From: Escherichia coli
GTDB lineage: Bacteria > Pseudomonadota > Gammaproteobacteria > Enterobacterales > Enterobacteriaceae
Length of the DNA: 64,000 nt
Direction: 5' to 3' (one strand)
Assembly: GCF_024502345.1 (NCBI RefSeq)
Contig: NZ_JALDNN010000001.1
The position numbers were made by a program, and so were the translations under genes. The notes below the pieces were generated by a model. That model was given only the letters and a program-made list of their open reading frames with translations, ran no database searches and was not told where the DNA came from. This document shows positions 1-44,044 of this stretch, piece after piece (position 1 is the stretch's first letter; each line of letters starts with the position of its first letter).

Positions 1-170
1 GTCAGTATTGTGCTGTTCAAATTGATGACGAATGGCTGGAGTGGTTTCTACTTTCAGTGCTGTGTACTAAGCCTGGTATTCCTGACGGTTAGCTGGTTGT
101 TGAGTGGTGAATGGTTAGCAGGAAAGAGTAAGGCTGAACCTTCACGTTCAACCTTACTCTCATTTACACG

Positions 171-3100
171 TTACGCTTTTTTAAAGCGGGCAAAGAGATG
201 TTCCACTACAACGAAAAAGACCGGAACGAAGTAAATTGCCAGCACTGTTGCGGCAAACATCCCGCCCATCACGCCGGTACCTACCGCGTTTTGCGCGCCA
301 GAACCGGCACCATGACTGATAACCAGCGGCAGCACGCCGAGAATAAAGGCCAGAGAGGTCATCAGGATTGGGCGTAAACGCATCCGCGCCGCTTCGATGA
401 TTGCCTCTATCGGCGTTTTCCCTTCTTTCTGCATCATCTCAACGGCAAATTCGACAATCAGGATGGCGTTCTTGGCGGAAAGCCCGATGGTGGTCAGCAA
501 ACCAACCTGGAAGTAGACGTCATTACTTAAGCCGCGCAGATCGGTGGCCAGTAATGCGCCAACGACGCCTAACGGAACAACCAACATCACCGAGAACGGA
601 ATTGACCAGCTCTCATAAAGTGCGGCGAGGGCGAGGAACACCACGACCAGTGAAATCGCATACAGCGCAGGAGCCTGATTTGAGGATAACGCTTCCTGAT
701 ACGACAGTCCGGTCCATGAGTAGCCGACGCCTGCCGGAAGTTTAGCGACCAGGTCTGCCATAAATTTCATGGCGTCACCGGTACTTTTCCCGGCCGCCGC
801 TTCACCTAAAATCTCCATTGACGGGATGCCGTTGTAGCGTTCCAGTCGCGGTGAACCATAGGTCCATTCGGTAGACGAGTAGGCAGAAAGCGGTGCCATC
901 GTGCCAGAGGCGTTGCGTACATACCATTGATTGATGTTATCCGGCAACATACGGAACGGCGTGCCTGCCTGGACATACACTTTTTTCACCCGCCCCTGGT
1001 TGAGGAAGTCGTTCACGTAGCTGCTGCCGAAGGCGGTGGAAATTGTCTGGTTGATATCAGACAGCGCCACACCCATTGCCTCAGCTTTCGCGGCGTTGAC
1101 GTTCACTTTGAACATCGGCGTATCTTCCAGGCCGTTCGGGCGTACCCCGGTGACCTGATTCGGTGATTGCGCTGCCAGTGATAACAGCTCGTTTCGTGCC
1201 TGGGTTAGTTTTTCGTGCCCCAGGTTACCGTTGTCCAGCAGTTCCATATCAAAACCTGACGCGGTACCCAGTTCAGCCACCGCGGGTAAGTTGAACGGGA
1301 AGACGACGGCTTTATTGATACTGCTTAGCGCAATCATTGCCCGCTGAATGATCGCGGTAACCGAGTTTTCCTCACCGACACGTTCAGACCACGGCTTGAG
1401 ACTGATAAACGCCAGGCCGTTGTTTTGCCCCTGGCCGCTGAAGCCAAAGCCGCCAACGGTAAACACCGACTGGACATTATCTTTCTCTTTAGTCAGATAA
1501 TAATCCGTCACCTGTTGCAGCACTTTCGTGGTGTTAACCATGGTGGCACCGGAAGGTAACTGCGCGGTGGTCATAAATACCCCCTGATCCTCTTCTGGTA
1601 AGAAAGAGGTCGGCGTGCGCAGGAACAGCACCGCCATCCCGGCGCAAATCAGCAGGTAGACCACCATGTAGCGACCGGTACAACGCAACAGCGAGCGGGT
1701 GCTATCGGTATAGTGCTGAGTTGATTTTTCAAACAGCGTGTTGAAGCGTGCGAACAGGGCGTTAGGTTTATGACCGCCTTCCGGCGCGGCTTTCAGAATG
1801 GTGGCGCACAGGGCAGGTGTCAGGCTCATTGCCACAAATACTGAAAGCAGCATGGAGGAGATCAGCGTGATGGAGAACTGGCGGTAGATCTCCCCGGTTG
1901 CACCGCTCATAAAGGCCATCGGCATAAACACTGCGGAAAGAACAACGGCAATACCGACCAGCGCACGTTGGATCTGCCCCATCGATTTATGCGTCGCTTC
2001 CTTCGGCGGTAGCTTATCTTCCGCAATGACACGCTCGACGTTCTCCACCACCACGATGGCGTCATCCACCAGTAACCCTATCGCCAGTACCATCCCGAAC
2101 ATAGTCAACGTGTTGATGGTGAAACCGACCGCCGACAAGATCGCAAACGTCCCGAGAATAACCACCGGTACGGCAATCGTCGGGATGATTGTGGCACGGA
2201 AATTCTGCAAAAACAGATACATGACCAGGAAGACGAGGATGATAGCCTCAACCAGTGTTTTGAAAACTTCCTGAATAGAAATTTCGATAAACGGCGTGGT
2301 GTCGTAAGGATAAACCGTCTTCAGACTTGCCGGGAAATAGGCTGATAAGCGGTTCAGTTCCTCTTTGACTGCCCGCGAGGTATCCAGGGCGTTTGCTCCG
2401 GCAGCCAGTTTGATGGCGATCCCGGCAGCAGGTTTGCCGTTATAGCGCGCCACGGTGGAATAATCTTCCGCCCCAAGTTCGACGCGAGCGACATCACGCA
2501 GCAGCACTTGCGAACCATCTTGCTGAACTTTCAACAGGATTTTGCCAAATTCTTCCGGCGTTTGCAGACGCGTCTGCACAATGATCGAGGCGTTTAGCTG
2601 CTGGTCTGCCGCCTGTGGCATGCCACCCAGTTGACCACCGGAAATCTGGTTGTTCTGCACCTTAATCTGGGAAATAACATCGGAAGGTTCCAGGTTATAT
2701 TTATTGAGTTTTTGCGGATCCAGCCAGATCCGCATGGCGTACTCGGAACCAAAGAGCTGTACGCTACCAACGCCCGCGGTACGGCTTAGCGGGTCTTTGA
2801 TATTAGACGCTACATAGTCCGCGATATCGTACTGGTTTAGGCTGCCGTTATCAGAAATAAACGCCGCTACCATCAGGATATTACTGCTCGATTTATCGAC
2901 GCTAATCCCCTGCTGCTGCACTGCTTCAGGTAATGAAGGCATAGCGAGTTGCAGTTTATTTTGCACCTGAACCTGTGCGATATCAGGAGATGTCCCAGTT
3001 TCGAAGGTCAGAGTGATAGAGGCATTACCCGCCGCATCACTGGTTGAAGACATGTACATCAGGCCATCAAGCCCATTCATATTTTGCTCAATCACCTGAG

Positions 3101-3284
3101 TGACCGAGTCTTCTACCGTTTGCGCATCGGCACCCGGATAGGTAGCGCTGACGGTAATGGTCGGTGGCGCAATCTGCGGATACTGCGCAACCGGTAAGTT
3201 CATGATCGCCAGACCACCTGCAAGCATCATAATAATGGCAAGTACCCAGGCAAAAACCGGGCGATCAATAAAATAGTTAGCCAT
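171..3284 (-). CDS. mdtF: RND multidrug efflux pump, inner-membrane transporter (AcrB/MdtF family), 1037 aa
   Basis: Full-length ORF; translation has the RND permease architecture and an N-terminus ([24 protein letters not shown]) matching MdtF/YhiV; sits immediately downstream of a periplasmic adaptor gene. Confidence 0.95.
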
Positions 3285-3308
3285 GAAAGTCCCCTTAAGC
3301 CTGCAACG

Positions 3309-4466
3309 TTATTGTTTCGATTCGGTGCTGGCGTTTTCCTGGCTGGAGGAAATTGCTCGTGCTTTGATACCTGGACGAATGCGTTGCAAACCGGAAACGA
3401 TCACCCGATCGCCAGCCTGCAAGCCAGAGGTGACAACCCACTGGTCGCCGATGGCTTTGCTGGCTTCAATTTCGCGTAGCTGCACGACATCGTCTTTATC
3501 CAGAATGAGCGCCGTTGCTTTACCCTGGGCGTTGTGGGTGACGCCTTCCTGCGGCACCAGTAATACATTCTGGCGGCTACCTTCATCCACTAATGCCGTG
3601 ACATACATGCCAGGCAGCAAGTCACCATTTGGGTTGGGGAAAATCGCCCGTAACGTCACGGAGCCCGTGGTTTCATCAACCGTCGGGTCGGAGAATTTCA
3701 GCGTGCCGGTCTGGCTGTAACGTTTACCATTTTCCAGATTGAGCTGTACTGGCGTACTGCCCTGAACCTGTTTGATTTGCCCACTGGCGACCTCTTCTTT
3801 CATGCGTAAGAAATCTTGCACCGACTGCGTGAGATCGACATAAATCGGGTCCAGACGTTGTACGGTAACCAGCGAATCTGCCTGATTAGCGGTAACGAGT
3901 GCGCCGACGGTCACCGACGATTTCCCGCTGACGCCCGTAATCGGCGAGGTGACATTCGCGTATTGCAGATTGATCGTCGCCTGTTCAACAGCCGCTTTGG
4001 CGACGGTGACATTGGCTTCTGCTTCATTCAACTGGGTGCGCGCGGTGTCGTAATCCTGACGGCTAACGTAGTTGGTCTTCAGCAACGATGCCTGGCGGTT
4101 AAAGGTGATGCGGGCATTGCTGGCGGTAGAGAGCGCTTTCGCCAGCGAGCCTTTGGCGGAGTTTAGCTCGGCCTGTAAAGGTGCAGGATCAATCTGATAC
4201 AGCGAATCGCCCTGGTTCACTTTATCGCCTTCGATAAAGTTGCGTTTAATGATAATACCGCCCACCTGGGGACGTATCTCGGCAACTTCATAAGGAACGG
4301 TTCTACCGGGCAATTCGCTCAACACATTGACCGACCCAGGGGAGAGTGTGACGACACCGACCTCAGGCGTCATGGCGGCGGTGTTTTCCGCCGATTTGTC
4401 ATCGCAGGCGGTGAGCATCGCGCCGCAGAATAACAACGGTATTAACAGCTTTCTTCTTCTGTTCAT
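3309..4466 (-). CDS. mdtE: RND efflux periplasmic adaptor (membrane fusion) lipoprotein, 385 aa
   Basis: ORF with lipoprotein signal peptide and lipobox (LTAC); HlyD/AcrA-like sequence; 24 bp upstream of mdtF on the same strand. Confidence 0.95.
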   Translation of the reverse strand: MNRRRKLLIPLLFCGAMLTACDDKSAENTAAMTPEVGVVTLSPGSVNVLSELPGRTVPYEVAEIRPQVGGIIIKRNFIEGDKVNQGDSLYQIDPAPLQAELNSAKGSLAKALSTASNARITFNRQASLLKTNYVSRQDYDTARTQLNEAEANVTVAKAAVEQATINLQYANVTSPITGVSGKSSVTVGALVTANQADSLVTVQRLDPIYVDLTQSVQDFLRMKEEVASGQIKQVQGSTPVQLNLENGKRYSQTGTLKFSDPTVDETTGSVTLRAIFPNPNGDLLPGMYVTALVDEGSRQNVLLVPQEGVTHNAQGKATALILDKDDVVQLREIEASKAIGDQWVVTSGLQAGDRVIVSGLQRIRPGIKARAISSSQENASTESKQ

Positions 4467-4804
4467 TTTATTCCCTGAAAATTCTTGAGAAATAACGGTT
4501 CTTTAAATTGCGCGCGAGGAGAGATATGAGGGATTTACAGACCAGCGGCATAGTGGGGTTGTCAGCCAGTAAGGTGGGATACAGGCATAGTGATCGACAT
4601 GGTGAGGTCAACGACAAAAAAAATGTTGCCGTTCTGCCAACAGTTCCTGCCAGCATTCGGGCAACGAAGGGTTCGACTGGTGGATACACATACCAGGGGA
4701 ATAAAGTCGTTTTAGCCTCTCCTTTAGTAATCACCGGGGGTAATGAAATCAGCATCTGCATCCCTCGTCATGCCAGCCATCAATTTCAGTTGCTTATGTC
4801 CTGA

Positions 4805-14119: not shown

Positions 14120-14205
14120 CGTAAAAAAACCGACTTTGCGTCGGTTTTTTACTTTCCAGCCCAGAGTTGGTGGCTCTGGCTGGAGTGAGAATGCCCACAT
14201 CTAAC
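14120..14205 (-). ncRNA. agrB: agrB-like small antisense RNA (repeat copy nearest arsR)
   Basis: Block shared with the dinQ leader (ctggctggagtgagaatgcc...) on the opposite strand to dinQ; putative -35 ttgcaa / -10 tagtat on the minus strand; hairpin plus U-run at 14123..14150. Ends approximate; agrA/agrB naming from recollection of K-12 order. Confidence 0.55.
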
Positions 14206-14351: not shown

Positions 14352-14442
14352 GATGTAAAAAAACCGACTTCGCGTCGGTTTTTTTACTGTTCAGCCCTGA
14401 GTTGGTGGCTCTGGCTGGAGTGAGAATGCCATCATCTAACGC
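14352..14442 (-). ncRNA. agrA: agrA-like small antisense RNA (repeat copy nearest dinQ)
   Basis: Second copy of the same repeat with its own putative -35 ttgcaa / -10 tagcat and terminator hairpin at 14355..14385; ends approximate. Confidence 0.55.
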
Positions 14443-36710: not shown

Positions 36711-37834
36711 TGCGCCATTTACGCAATATTTTTAATCTGGGTATCAAAGAGTTGCGCAGTCTACTCGGTGATAAAGCGATGCTGACATTGATTGTCTTCT
36801 CGTTTACGGTGTCGGTGTATTCGTCAGCGACCGTGACGCCAGGATCGTTAAACCTCGCGCCGATCGCCATTGCCGATATGGATCAATCGCAGTTATCGAA
36901 CCGGATCGTTAACAGCTTCTATCGCCCGTGGTTTTTGCCACCGGAGATGATCACCGCCGATGAGATGGATGCCGGACTGGACGCCGGGCGTTATACCTTT
37001 GCGATAAATATTCCGCCTAATTTTCAGCGTGATGTCCTCGCCGGACGCCAGCCGGATATTCAGGTGAACGTCGATGCCACGCGCATGAGCCAGGCATTTA
37101 CCGGCAATGGGTATATCCAGAATATTATCAACGGTGAAGTGAACAGCTTTGTCGCGCGCTACCGTGATAATAGCGAGCCGTTGGTATCGCTGGAAACCCG
37201 GATGCGCTTTAACCCGAACCTCGATCCCGCGTGGTTTGGCGGGGTGATGGCGATCATCAACAACATTACTATGCTGGCGATTGTATTGACCGGATCGGCG
37301 CTGATCCGCGAGCGTGAACACGGCACGGTGGAACACTTACTGGTGATGCCGATAACGCCGTTTGAGATCATGATGGCGAAGGTCTGGTCGATGGGGCTAG
37401 TGGTGCTGGTGGTATCGGGATTATCGCTGGTGCTGATGGTGAAAGGCGTGCTGGGCGTACCGATTGAAGGCTCGATCCCGCTGTTTATGCTGGGCGTGGC
37501 GCTCAGTCTGTTTGCCACCACGTCAATCGGCATTTTTATGGGGACGATAGCGCGTTCAATGCCGCAACTGGGGCTGCTGGTGATTCTGGTGCTGCTGCCA
37601 CTGCAAATGCTTTCCGGTGGATCCACGCCGCGCGAAAGTATGCCGCAGATGGTGCAGGACATTATGCTGACCATGCCGACGACACACTTTGTTAGCCTCG
37701 CGCAGGCCATTCTCTACCGGGGTGCCGGATTCGAAATCGTCTGGCCGCAGTTCCTGACGCTGATGGCAATTGGCGGCGCGTTTTTCACCATTGCGCTGCT
37801 GCGATTCAGGAAGACGATTGGGACAATGGCGTAA
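36710..37834 (+). CDS. yhhJ: ABC-2 family transporter permease YhhJ, about 374 aa
   Basis: ORF 36626..37834; tandem ATGATG at 36707..36712 overlapping the rbbA stop; conserved N-terminus [19 protein letters not shown]. Confidence 0.9.
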   Translation: MRHLRNIFNLGIKELRSLLGDKAMLTLIVFSFTVSVYSSATVTPGSLNLAPIAIADMDQSQLSNRIVNSFYRPWFLPPEMITADEMDAGLDAGRYTFAINIPPNFQRDVLAGRQPDIQVNVDATRMSQAFTGNGYIQNIINGEVNSFVARYRDNSEPLVSLETRMRFNPNLDPAWFGGVMAIINNITMLAIVLTGSALIREREHGTVEHLLVMPITPFEIMMAKVWSMGLVVLVVSGLSLVLMVKGVLGVPIEGSIPLFMLGVALSLFATTSIGIFMGTIARSMPQLGLLVILVLLPLQMLSGGSTPRESMPQMVQDIMLTMPTTHFVSLAQAILYRGAGFEIVWPQFLTLMAIGGAFFTIALLRFRKTIGTMA

Positions 37835-37842
37835 GGAAGGGA

Positions 37843-37900
37843 ACTTGACTTCATACTGTGATGTCATACTATTGATGTCATAAAGTGAAGTCATAAGGAC
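37843..37900 (+). promoter_or_regulatory. Candidate promoter/operator upstream of the hicA-like gene
   Basis: Inverted repeat tgacttca (37846..37853) / tgaagtca (37886..37893) bracketing tandem gtcata repeats; aagga RBS before ATG 37906. Confidence 0.45.
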
Positions 37901-37905
37901 ATGCC

Positions 37906-38181
37906 ATGAGAACCAAGGTACAGGCTTTACGGAAGAAACAAAAAAATACATTGGATCAAATATTTAAAACTCCTGTTCCTCAAGGGATCAAGTGGTCTGA
38001 TATAGAGTCACTGGTTAAAGCATTAGGCGGAGAAATTAAGGAAGGAAGAGGTTCGCGTTGTAAGTTCATACTAAATATGAGCGTTGCGTGTTTCCATCGG
38101 CCTCATCCGTCGCCAGATACCGATAAAGGCGCTGTAGAAAGCGTGCGTGACTGGTTACTAAGTATAGGGGTAAAACCATGA
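37906..38181 (+). CDS. HicA-like (YcfA family) type II toxin, putative mRNA interferase, 91 aa
   Basis: Small ORF with HicA-like pattern (KWSDIESLVKALGGEIKEGRGSRCKF...FHRPHP...KGAVESVRDWLLSIG); 4-bp ATGA overlap with the downstream antitoxin-like ORF. Confidence 0.7.
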   Translation: MRTKVQALRKKQKNTLDQIFKTPVPQGIKWSDIESLVKALGGEIKEGRGSRCKFILNMSVACFHRPHPSPDTDKGAVESVRDWLLSIGVKP

Positions 38182-38537
38182 TCAAACTGAAGACGCCAAA
38201 CTCTATGGAGATTGCCGGGCAACCTGCTGTTATCACTTACGTGCCAGAACTGAATGCATTTCGTGGCAAATTCCTGGGCTTGTCAGGTTATTGTGATTTT
38301 GTCTCTGACAGCATTCAGGGGCTGCAAAAAGAAGGGGAACTTTCCCTGCGAGAGTATCTTGAGGATTGTAAAGCTGCGGGTATTGAGCCGTATGCGCGTA
38401 CAGAAAAGATTAAGACCTTTACGTTACGCTATCCAGAATCGCTGAGTGAACGCCTTAATAATGCGGCTGCGCAGCAACAAGTCTCTGTTAATACCTATAT
38501 TATTGAAACACTGAATGAGCGTTTGAATCATTTATAA
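38178..38537 (+). CDS. HicB-like type II antitoxin with C-terminal ribbon-helix-helix DNA-binding tail, 119 aa
   Basis: N-terminal HicB-like fold signature (YxGxxxxxxELNAFRGKFLGLSGYCDFVSDSIQGL...EYLEDCKAAGIEP) and C-terminal RHH-like segment (FTLRYPESLSERLNNAAAQQQVSVNTYIIETLNERL). Confidence 0.75.
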   Translation: MIKLKTPNSMEIAGQPAVITYVPELNAFRGKFLGLSGYCDFVSDSIQGLQKEGELSLREYLEDCKAAGIEPYARTEKIKTFTLRYPESLSERLNNAAAQQQVSVNTYIIETLNERLNHL

Positions 38538-38591
38538 ATTTTAGCGGCGTACATTACGCAGAATATCTGCCTTTACAGGATCTATCTATGC

Positions 38592-38624
38592 AACTGAACT
38601 TAATTTTATAAATTAAGTTCAGTT
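38592..38624. terminator. Perfect 15-bp inverted repeat with 3-nt spacer (candidate hicAB terminator or recombination/binding site)
   Basis: aactgaacttaattt-tat-aaattaagttcagtt read directly; T-rich tract follows on the plus strand. Confidence 0.5.
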
Positions 38625-38656
38625 AATATCTTTTCTTTCCTCGTTTTAGAAATAAC

Positions 38657-41460
<2,804 letters not shown>

Positions 41461-44016: not shown

Positions 44017-44044
44017 GTATGACGATTTTAAGTATTCGTCATAC
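44017..44044. promoter_or_regulatory. NikR operator in the nikA promoter (GTATGA-N16-TCATAC)
   Basis: gtatgacgattttaagtattcgtcatac located 38 bp upstream of the nikA start codon; matches the known NikR dyad. Confidence 0.85.

What the first reader, a model, noticed from the sequence alone, without database searches (positions are those of the whole stretch)
37835..38656. HicA/HicB-like toxin-antitoxin pair between yhhJ and nikR
Two small overlapping ORFs (91 aa and 119 aa, ATGA overlap) sit alone in an 820-bp gap between core genes. The first has a HicA/YcfA-like pattern (GS..KF...FHRPHP...G). The second has a HicB-like N-terminus plus a C-terminal ribbon-helix-helix tail. From memory, K-12 has the rhsB element at this position and nothing like this pair, so this looks like a strain-variable islet carrying an uncharacterised TA module.
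Basis: partly seen in the sequence, partly recalled or inferred. Interest (0 to 1): 0.55.

Follow-up and report, generated by a model that had tools for sequence, protein, structure and literature searches.

The report
HicAB toxin-antitoxin pair beside nikR
The two small overlapping genes between yhhJ and nikR are a real, self-regulated HicA/HicB toxin-antitoxin module that databases already annotate in about 38% of complete E. coli genomes; the one unusual point is that its toxin belongs to a large, apparently untested branch in which the usual catalytic histidine is replaced by arginine.

Summary
hicA (37906-38181, 91 aa) and hicB (38178-38537, 119 aa) overlap by ATGA in the 822-bp yhhJ-nikR gap. 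Pfam gives HicA_toxin (E=3.7e-9) and HicB (E=3.5e-15). AlphaFold models match solved HicA and HicB structures best.

PGAP already names the pair HicA/HicB in 2075 of 5426 complete E. coli genomes. Close homologues sit in Class 4 of Gerdes' 2024 HicA catalogue (HicB with a ribbon-helix-helix tail). So the module is catalogued, although I found no experiment on this branch.

- **Regulation.** Four TGAnnTCA boxes overlap a sigma-70-like promoter and recur upstream of hicA in many genera. They are the likely HicB operator.
- **Active site.** The histidine essential in every tested HicA is an invariant arginine here (R51). Two other histidines, H64 and H67, are conserved nearby.
- **Locus history.** K-12 carries the rhsB element at exactly this slot. 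Citrobacter has hicAB in the same place, so the pair looks like an old resident of a variable slot rather than a recent islet.
- **Toxin decay.** Many E. coli lineages carry hicA null alleles while keeping hicB intact. The window's copy is intact.

Interest is modest.

The parts
37835..38650 (.). Whole hicAB cassette, bounded by its homology breakpoints with E. coli K-12
   Evidence: blastn of window 37500-39000 against the K-12 nikR-yhhJ region. Homology stops exactly at the yhhJ stop codon (37834) and resumes at 38651, six bases beyond the nikR stop. K-12 has 6.7 kb of rhsB-yhhH-yrhC-yhhI in between. GC is 42-46% here against 54-60% in the flanks.
37845..37872 (+). Sigma-70-like promoter, TTGACT - 16 nt - TACTAT (predicted)
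   Evidence: Consensus scan, 9 of 12 matches. An equivalent TTGACT plus -10 arrangement is visible in Citrobacter, the L009 lineage and the Serratia prophage copy. It is not tested experimentally.
37846..37893 (+). Putative HicB operator. Four 8-bp boxes: TGACTTCA (37846-53), TGATGTCA (37859-66), TGATGTCA (37873-80) and TGAAGTCA (37886-93). They form two pairs with 13-bp spacing.
   Evidence: The pattern TGANNTCA-N5-TGANNTCA occurs only twice in the 64-kb window, both times here; 0.01 are expected by chance. The same paired boxes lie upstream of hicA in Citrobacter, Xenorhabdus, Photorhabdus, Pectobacterium, Prodigiosinella, Cedecea, Buttiauxella and a Serratia P2-like prophage, with fewer exact boxes in Leminorella, Brenneria, Sodalis, Erwinia, Pantoea and Serratia silvae, although the spacer sequences differ. 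Binding by HicB is inferred.
37906..38181 (+). hicA, a 91-aa HicA-family toxin homologue with an extra N-terminal helical extension (about residues 1-29). The copy here is intact.
38050..38058 (+). Codons G49-S50-R51, the position of the canonical G-x-H catalytic motif at the start of strand beta-2. Arginine stands where the histidine should be.
   Evidence: A profile search against PDB aligns GSR with GSH of HicA 9svk_A. hhalign to a canonical GSH HicA aligns G49-S50-R51 with G22-S23-H24. R51 is invariant in 26 homologues and present in 142 of 147 cluster representatives.
38095..38106 (+). Codons H64-R65-P66-H67 of the FHRPHP motif, a candidate replacement active site
   Evidence: H64 is present in 145 of 147 and H67 in 143 of 147 representatives. 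In the model beta-2 spans 51-56 and beta-3 spans 59-64, so H64 is inferred to be the cross-strand neighbour of R51. H67 aligns with the P-H-P histidine of canonical HicA.
38178..38537 (+). [quoted passage not shown]
   Evidence: Pfam HicB PF05534 E=3.5e-15 over residues 60-112, with weak Arc/CopG/FitA ribbon-helix-helix hits. phrog_9151 'HicB-like antitoxin' E=6e-13 and Arc-like repressor families. AlphaFold pLDDT 85. Foldseek top hits are 6g26_A/B, 6u0i, 4p78_A, 2dsy, 6hpb_B and Arc 1bdv. The protein is identical to WP_000593555.1.
38592..38634 (+). Perfect 15-bp-stem hairpin (AACTGAACTTAATTT / AAATTAAGTTCAGTT) followed by a T-rich tail; probable hicAB terminator
   Evidence: Terminator scan and inverted-repeat search. 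RNA fold of 38538-38656 gives -24.1 kcal/mol, z=-3.7. The hairpin belongs to the cassette and is absent from K-12.

Best explanation
This is a chromosomal type II toxin-antitoxin operon of the hicA-then-hicB kind, Gerdes Class 4 (HicB carries a ribbon-helix-helix domain).

- **Expression.** One promoter (37845-37872) drives both genes. The ATGA overlap couples hicB translation to hicA.
- **Toxin.** HicA is a small protein with a double-stranded-RNA-binding fold. It most likely arrests growth by binding and cutting RNA.
- **Antitoxin.** HicB's N-terminal domain binds and neutralises HicA. Its C-terminal ribbon-helix-helix domain dimerises and binds the four TGAnnTCA boxes that overlap the promoter, so the operon represses itself.
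- **Active site.** This branch is not canonical. The beta-2 histidine required in every tested HicA is an invariant arginine (R51). I infer that H64, its cross-strand neighbour, and H67 take over or share the chemistry.

Shown here: the gene pair, family and fold membership, the conserved operator pattern, the His-to-Arg replacement and the population distribution. Inferred: toxicity, RNase activity, neutralisation, operator binding and the biological role (addiction or phage defence).
For: - **Family and fold.** Pfam hits for both proteins and PHROG toxin/antitoxin families. High-confidence models whose best structural matches are solved HicA and HicB proteins.
- **Conserved pairing.** The same HicA type sits next to the same HicB type in 75 of 80 species, usually within a few bases of each other or overlapping.
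- **Operator.** The box pattern is unique in the window (2 found, 0.01 expected). It recurs upstream of hicA across many genera.
- **Mobile contexts typical of TA modules.** A P2-like prophage in Serratia, Burkholderia phage ST79 and Ralstonia phages, and 223 plasmid records.
- **Asymmetric decay.** At least three independent hicA null alleles exist in E. coli: R2*, Q26* and a frameshift. hicB stays identical at the protein level. That pattern is expected if the toxin is harmful without its antidote.
- **Use as a warhead.** A GSR-type HicA domain forms the C-terminus of a 2052-aa haemagglutinin-repeat protein, as toxin warheads do.
- **Published basis.** HicB autorepression through ribbon-helix-helix domains, and HicA RNase activity, are described for Class 3/4 modules (PMC10865869, PMC11594946).
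Against: - No experiment on any member of this branch was found in the searchable literature.
- The residue that is essential for toxicity or RNase activity in the HicAs of E. coli K-12, Y. pestis, B. pseudomallei, S. pneumoniae and N. gonorrhoeae, and conserved in S. meliloti HicA (PMC11594946, PMC12297915, PMC6327479), is missing.
- NCBIfam and PADLOC give no hit.
- Neither protein has detectable sequence similarity to K-12 HicA or HicB or, by phmmer, to any solved HicA.
- The Foldseek E-values are individually weak.
- Null hicA alleles could also reflect neutral decay.
Confidence: 0.75

Rival explanations
1. The HicA-like protein is catalytically inert. It would bind RNA or act only as a co-repressor, and the pair would be a domesticated regulatory module rather than a toxin-antitoxin system.
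For: The canonical catalytic histidine is replaced by arginine throughout the branch. No toxicity data exist. The pair appears to have been stably resident next to nikR in Escherichia and Citrobacter.
Against: H64 and H67 are almost invariant over more than 140 diverse representatives, which suggests a preserved active site rather than a relaxed one. The branch is frequent on plasmids and in prophages, like addiction or defence modules. hicA, not hicB, is repeatedly knocked out in E. coli. The domain is fused to the C-terminus of a haemagglutinin-repeat giant protein, like a toxin warhead.
Confidence: 0.12
2. The module's main role is phage defence by abortive infection, not genome or plasmid stabilisation. 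Infection would free HicA from HicB, and HicA would shut down translation.
For: Homologues occupy a variable cargo position of a P2-like prophage, between the replication gene/Dam methylase and ogr, and occur in phages ST79 and Dina. PHROGs files both families as 'moron/host takeover'. Gerdes 2024 argues for a defence role of HicA modules in general (PMC10865869).
Against: PADLOC has no model that matches. In E. coli the pair sits between housekeeping operons, not in a defence island. About 38% of E. coli carriers have a nonsense codon at position 2 of hicA, so any defence function is dispensable. No phage data exist.
Confidence: 0.2
3. The two ORFs are a decaying, functionless remnant in this strain.
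For: Many E. coli lineages carry null hicA alleles. The window has a 1-bp deletion just upstream of the -35 box.
Against: In this window both reading frames, the promoter hexamers, all four boxes, both ribosome-binding sites and the terminator are intact. The proteins are identical to the commonest intact alleles, WP_001259385.1 and WP_000593555.1. The 1-bp deletion lies outside the promoter elements.
Confidence: 0.08

Closest known systems
[quoted passage not shown]
   Same: Gene order is toxin first. HicA has the small double-stranded-RNA-binding fold. HicB has an N-terminal HicB-type domain plus a ribbon-helix-helix domain. Repeated operator sites lie at the promoter. Structural best hits are 6g26, 4p78 and 5yrz. 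An orthologous Klebsiella variicola pair and other GSR-type pairs are listed in that paper's Class 4 table.
   Different: HicA has a 29-residue N-terminal helical extension. It has arginine in place of the catalytic beta-2 histidine, and a conserved FHRPHP motif. HicB is shorter (119 aa against 133-145) and does not match Pfam PF15919. The operator is four 8-bp TGAnnTCA boxes rather than the two 15-bp inverted repeats described for Y. pestis (PMC11594946). phmmer finds no sequence similarity to the solved proteins.
E. coli K-12 HicA/HicB (b4532/b1438, PDB 6HPB), Class 3
   Different: BLASTP and hhalign find no similarity. K-12 HicB uses a helix-turn-helix domain, not ribbon-helix-helix. K-12 HicA is 58 aa with catalytic His23. 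The chromosomal locus is different (1.51 Mb). Cross-neutralisation is therefore unlikely (inference).
Haemophilus influenzae hicAB, the locus that gave the family its name and, as I recall, the seed of Pfam PF05534 'HicB family'
   Same: The HicB here matches PF05534 at E=3.5e-15. Pasteurellaceae carry homologues 60% identical in HicA and about 50% in HicB.
   Different: That the H. influenzae pair itself belongs to this GSR branch rests on memory of the Pfam description. It was not checked here.

Membership tests
HicA toxin family (Pfam PF07927 / COG1724) | Significant match to the family profile | tested here: met
   HicA_toxin E=3.7e-9, 37 bits, residues 30-80 matching model positions 1-52 of 58. 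PGAP names it a HicA family toxin.
HicA toxin family (Pfam PF07927 / COG1724) | [quoted passage not shown] | tested here: met
HicA toxin family (Pfam PF07927 / COG1724) | Catalytic histidine at the start of strand beta-2 (G-x-H motif), essential in every HicA tested so far | tested here: not met
   G49-S50-R51 aligns with G-S-H. Arginine occupies this position in 142 of 147 representatives of the branch. The requirement for the histidine is documented in PMC11594946 and PMC12297915.
HicA toxin family (Pfam PF07927 / COG1724) | Growth arrest on expression; RNA cleavage independent of the ribosome | not testable with these tools
   No experimental data were found for this branch.
HicB antitoxin family (Pfam PF05534; Gerdes Class 4) | Significant profile match and position immediately downstream of hicA | tested here: met
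   PF05534 E=3.5e-15. The genes overlap by ATGA. The adjacency is conserved in 75 of 80 species.
HicB antitoxin family (Pfam PF05534; Gerdes Class 4) | N-terminal HicB-type (partial RNase H) domain | tested here: inconclusive
   The model shows four strands and a long helix at residues 9-67. Foldseek top hits are HicB structures with probability up to 1.00, but E-values are only 0.01-0.2 and whole-chain rmsd is large. Pfam PF15919 gives no hit.
HicB antitoxin family (Pfam PF05534; Gerdes Class 4) | C-terminal ribbon-helix-helix DNA-binding domain | tested here: met
   Weak Arc, CopG and FitA Pfam hits over residues 76-116. Arc-like repressor PHROGs down to E=1.3e-6. The model has helices 87-99 and 104-118. 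Foldseek matches Arc and NikA. Gerdes' table marks the orthologue as ribbon-helix-helix.
Type II toxin-antitoxin operon | Autoregulation through antitoxin binding sites in the promoter | tested here: inconclusive
   Four conserved boxes overlap the predicted promoter. Binding itself was not tested.
Known anti-phage defence systems (PADLOC-DB v2) | Match to a defence-system protein model | tested here: not met
   Neither protein matches any family at E<=1.

The most novel reading that the evidence does not exclude
The 'GSR/FHRPHP' HicA proteins form a large, unrecognised branch: at least 1000 clusters at 50% identity, found in more than 500 species, on plasmids and in P2-like phages. In this branch the catalytic histidine has moved from strand beta-2 to the neighbouring strand beta-3 (H64, with H67 and R51), or the protein works through a different chemistry or target from the HicA RNases studied so far. 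The E. coli yhhJ-nikR pair would be a convenient model, because natural null alleles and module-free strains such as K-12 are available.
Probability: 0.35. Interest if true: 0.5.

Novelty: new variant of a known kind. Interest (0 to 1): 0.3.

Why it matters
As a gene call this is routine. PGAP already labels the pair, and the class is described. The value lies in three side results.

1. Every mechanistic statement about HicA rests on proteins that have the beta-2 histidine. This branch lacks it, yet it is very widespread, so it tests whether 'HicA = histidine-dependent RNase' is general.
2. The conserved four-box operator gives a ready, testable model of HicB ribbon-helix-helix recognition.
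3. The yhhJ-nikR slot shows clean alternative states (hicAB, hicAB plus a sugar island, the sugar island alone, rhsB). It also shows repeated loss of the toxin with retention of the antitoxin. Both are useful for studying how chromosomal toxin-antitoxin modules persist and decay.

Tried and rejected
- **No-hit searches.** NCBIfam and PADLOC scans gave nothing for either protein. phmmer against all PDB sequences gave no HicA hit and only a marginal Arc hit for HicB. BLASTP to K-12 HicA and hhalign to K-12 HicB gave no alignment.
- **Literature.** Searches for the RefSeq accessions, for hicAB with nikR, for the motif strings and for Piscirickettsia HicA found nothing relevant. One search failed on syntax. 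A search for P2-like hotspot papers mentioning HicA found none.
- **Characterised HicAB systems checked and excluded.** The IncI2 plasmid p45 HicAB belongs to a different subfamily: its HicB has PF15919. The S. meliloti and gonococcal HicAs are canonical, histidine-containing proteins. The ExPEC strain PPECC42 hicAB study cited in PMC11594946 is not in the library, so I could not tell which E. coli hicAB locus it used.
- **Link to NikR.** I considered that the TCATAC strings in the hicA promoter might be NikR half-sites. From memory the NikR operator is GTATGA-N16-TCATAC. That operator occurs exactly only at 44017-44044, upstream of nikA, so I rejected the idea.
- **Non-coding RNA.** Rfam finds no RNA family in 37800-38700.
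- **Fused HicA domain.** I looked for a HicB-like immunity gene next to the giant protein that carries the fused HicA domain and found none.

Full report
**1. Observation.**
The ORF list shows a 91-aa ORF at 37906-38181 and a 119-aa ORF at 38178-38537, both on the plus strand. They overlap by ATGA. yhhJ, preceded by rbbA, ends at 37834. nikR lies on the minus strand at 38657-39058, followed by nikEDCB. The flanking genes were identified from a 99.9% identical annotated E. coli genome. Each ORF has a plausible ribosome-binding site: AAGGA six bases before the hicA ATG, and GGGGT six to seven bases before the hicB ATG.

**2. Family assignment.**
- *Profiles.* Pfam gives HicA_toxin PF07927 for the first protein (E=3.7e-9, residues 30-80). 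It gives HicB PF05534 for the second (E=3.5e-15, residues 60-112), with weak Arc, CopG and FitA ribbon-helix-helix hits over 76-116. PHROGs gives a 'toxin' family (E=7e-27), a 'HicB-like antitoxin' family (E=6e-13) and several Arc-like repressor families. NCBIfam and PADLOC give nothing.
- *HicB model.* The model has pLDDT 85. It shows a four-stranded sheet plus a long helix, then two helices of a ribbon-helix-helix domain. Its best Foldseek hits are B. pseudomallei, E. coli and Y. pestis HicB, TTHA0281 and Arc.
- *Distance from K-12 hicAB.* Neither protein shows sequence similarity to the K-12 HicA/HicB pair.

**3. It is already catalogued.**
A megablast of the 822-bp interval finds it in 2075 of 5426 complete E. 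coli genomes, always on the chromosome. PGAP annotates it as 'type II toxin-antitoxin system HicA family toxin / HicB family antitoxin'. Gerdes (2024, PMC10865869) divides HicA contexts into 14 classes. Class 4 is hicAB with a ribbon-helix-helix HicB. His supplementary table lists a Klebsiella variicola pair of 91 and 119 aa with a -4 overlap, clearly orthologous to this one, and further members of the same branch. I found no experimental work on any member. The characterised systems I could check are canonical: S. meliloti, N. gonorrhoeae and IncI2 plasmid p45. I could not check the ExPEC study cited in PMC11594946.

**4. The non-canonical active site.**
- *Conserved residues.* In an alignment of 26 homologues, G49, S50, R51, H64, P66, H67 and P68 are invariant.
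- *Alignment to canonical HicA.* A profile search of the PDB aligns GSR with the GSH of HicA 9svk_A. hhalign to a canonical E. coli plasmid HicA aligns G49-S50-R51 with G22-S23-H24, and P66-H67-P68 with P-H-P.
- *Why this matters.* The histidine at the start of beta-2 is required for toxicity or RNase activity in the tested HicAs (PMC11594946; PMC12297915).
- *Size of the branch.* A full HMMER search of 1.84 billion cluster representatives finds 2470 proteins at E<=1e-3 and 1018 at E<=1e-10. Among the top 147, R51 occurs in 142, H64 in 145, H67 in 143 and W30 in 141.
- *Inference.* Strands beta-2 (51-56) and beta-3 (59-64) form a hairpin in the model. H64 should therefore sit across from R51. 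The gonococcal paper notes that the post-beta-3 histidine lies close in space to the catalytic one.

**5. Regulation.**
- *Promoter.* A promoter-like site, TTGACT-16-TACTAT, lies at 37845-37872.
- *Boxes.* Four 8-bp boxes overlap and follow the promoter: TGACTTCA, TGATGTCA, TGATGTCA and TGAAGTCA. They form two pairs with 13-bp spacing.
- *Specificity.* The paired pattern TGANNTCA-N5-TGANNTCA occurs nowhere else in the 64-kb window; 0.01 matches are expected by chance.
- *Conservation.* Paired boxes occur upstream of hicA in Citrobacter, an unnamed enterobacterial lineage, a Serratia prophage, Xenorhabdus, Photorhabdus, Pectobacterium, Prodigiosinella, Cedecea and Buttiauxella, and in reduced number in Leminorella, Brenneria, Sodalis, Erwinia, Pantoea, Serratia silvae and Pasteurellaceae. 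The surrounding sequence differs. This footprint is the best evidence that the boxes are the HicB operator.
- *Terminator.* A perfect 15-bp hairpin with a T-rich tail at 38592-38634 is the likely terminator.
- *Excluded.* Rfam finds no RNA family in the interval. The NikR operator is upstream of nikA, not here.

**6. The locus in the population.**
- *K-12.* rhsB-yhhH-yrhC-yhhI (6.7 kb) replaces window 37835-38650 exactly. The K-12-type junction is in 2118 genomes.
- *O157:H7.* It has the same intact hicAB plus a 5.8-kb PTS/aldolase island between hicB and nikR.
- *Nissle 1917.* It has that island alone, with no hicAB remnant.
- *Strain A30.* It has an IS1-associated deletion.
- *Other genera.* Citrobacter has rbbA-yhhJ-hicAB-nikR in the same order, with HicA 86% identical. 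Another enterobacterial lineage has hicAB next to nikR but a different upstream flank. Elsewhere the pair is not near nikR.
- *Composition.* GC is 42-46% in the cassette against 54-60% in the flanks.
- *Reading.* The module is of mobile origin, has been resident next to nikR for a long time, and sits in a slot whose content is often exchanged.

**7. Toxin decay.**
I probed the genomes with the first 95 bases of the hicA region.
- 573 genomes are identical to the window.
- 705 are 95-99% identical.
- 791 carry an 83%-identical allele. In O104:H4 this allele has a 14-bp deletion that removes one operator box and the -10 hexamer. It also has a TAA at codon 2; PGAP rescues a 76-aa ORF from an internal CTG.
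- A B2-type strain (MS14385) has Q26* and is flagged as a pseudogene.
- A frameshift variant truncated at the GSR motif occurs on 588 contigs.

HicB is WP_000593555.1 in all sampled genomes. It shows 6 synonymous and 0 non-synonymous changes between lineages. The O104:H4 allele has hicB DNA identical to the window but 15% divergence in the first 153 nt of hicA, which points to a recombination breakpoint inside hicA. The window's own copy is intact in every element. Its only peculiarity is one missing A upstream of the -35 box.

**8. Mobile contexts.**
- A Serratia proteamaculans copy lies in a P2-like prophage between the replication gene/Dam methylase and ogr.
- Homologues about 50% identical occur in Burkholderia phage ST79 and Ralstonia phages.
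- They also occur in 223 plasmid records from Piscirickettsia, Sinorhizobium, Rhizobium, Deinococcus and others.
- A genome scan found the FHRPHPSP motif protein in more than 500 species, from Proteobacteria to Cyanobacteria and Deferribacteres.
- One metagenomic 2052-aa haemagglutinin-repeat protein ends in a GSR-type HicA domain. This hints that the domain is used as a toxin warhead, although no HicB-like gene follows it.

**9. Verdict.**
The module is a known kind, already annotated and catalogued, so surprise is low. Three things keep it from being wholly ordinary: its HicA lacks the family's catalytic histidine and belongs to a very large untested branch; its operator is unusually clear; and the E. 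coli population offers natural toxin-null alleles and alternative cargoes at the same slot. I rate it a new variant of a known kind, interest 0.3.

Noticed in passing
window 37841-37842: The window lacks one A (GGGAAAC becomes GGGAAC) compared with the close E. coli sequences aligned base by base (88-3493, O104:H4, O157:H7). The site is just upstream of the -35 hexamer of the hicA promoter. It is probably neutral or a sequencing difference.
   Followed up: partly
L007 1496-1590 (E. coli O104:H4), equivalent to window 37846-37950: A common E. coli allele, in 791 of 2071 carrier genomes, has a 14-bp deletion that removes one operator box and the -10 hexamer. It also has a TAA at codon 2 of hicA. 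PGAP nevertheless calls a 76-aa 'HicA' from an internal CTG.
   Followed up: yes
L012 373-648 (E. coli MS14385); protein P0094: Two further independent hicA null alleles exist: Q26* (flagged as a pseudogene by PGAP) and a frameshift at the GSR motif that gives a 55-aa product seen on 588 contigs. The HicB protein is unchanged in the genomes sampled.
   Followed up: partly
window 37906-38537 compared with L007: hicB DNA is identical between the window and O104:H4, but the first 153 nt of hicA differ at 23 positions (15%). This suggests a recombination breakpoint inside hicA.
   Followed up: no
yhhJ-nikR slot: L002 (K-12), L008 (O157:H7), L015 (Nissle 1917), L013 (A30): The same intergenic slot holds at least five alternative contents: hicAB; hicAB plus a 5.8-kb GntR/PTS/FGGY-kinase/aldolase island; that island alone; the rhsB element; or an IS1-bounded deletion reaching yhiN.
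   Followed up: partly
L006 747-7670 (Serratia proteamaculans): A homologous hicAB pair sits in a P2-like prophage, between the gpA-like replication gene/Dam methylase and ogr. Similar pairs occur in Burkholderia phage ST79 and Ralstonia phage Dina.
   Followed up: partly
P0340 (L096 3001-9159) and P0310: A GSR-type HicA domain forms the C-terminus of a 2052-aa haemagglutinin-repeat (Fil_haemagg_2) protein and of a 337-aa protein. The arrangement resembles that of polymorphic toxins. No HicB-like gene follows P0340; a YafQ/ParE-type pair does.
   Followed up: partly
proteins P0052, P0055, P0058, P0077, P0102, P0162: Public records name homologues of this HicA 'hexulose-6-phosphate synthase' or 'uracil DNA glycosylase', and homologues of this HicB 'DNA repair protein'. 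These names are evidently propagated misannotations.
   Followed up: no
window 14121-14204 and 14355-14439 (minus strand); 4616-4687 (minus strand): Rfam finds two AgrB antisense RNAs and the ES205 sRNA elsewhere in the window. As I recall, AgrB belongs to the dinQ-agrAB type I toxin-antitoxin region.
   Followed up: no
window 44017-44044: There is an exact match to GTATGA-N16-TCATAC upstream of nikA. I recall this as the NikR operator. No such site lies at the hicA promoter.
   Followed up: yes
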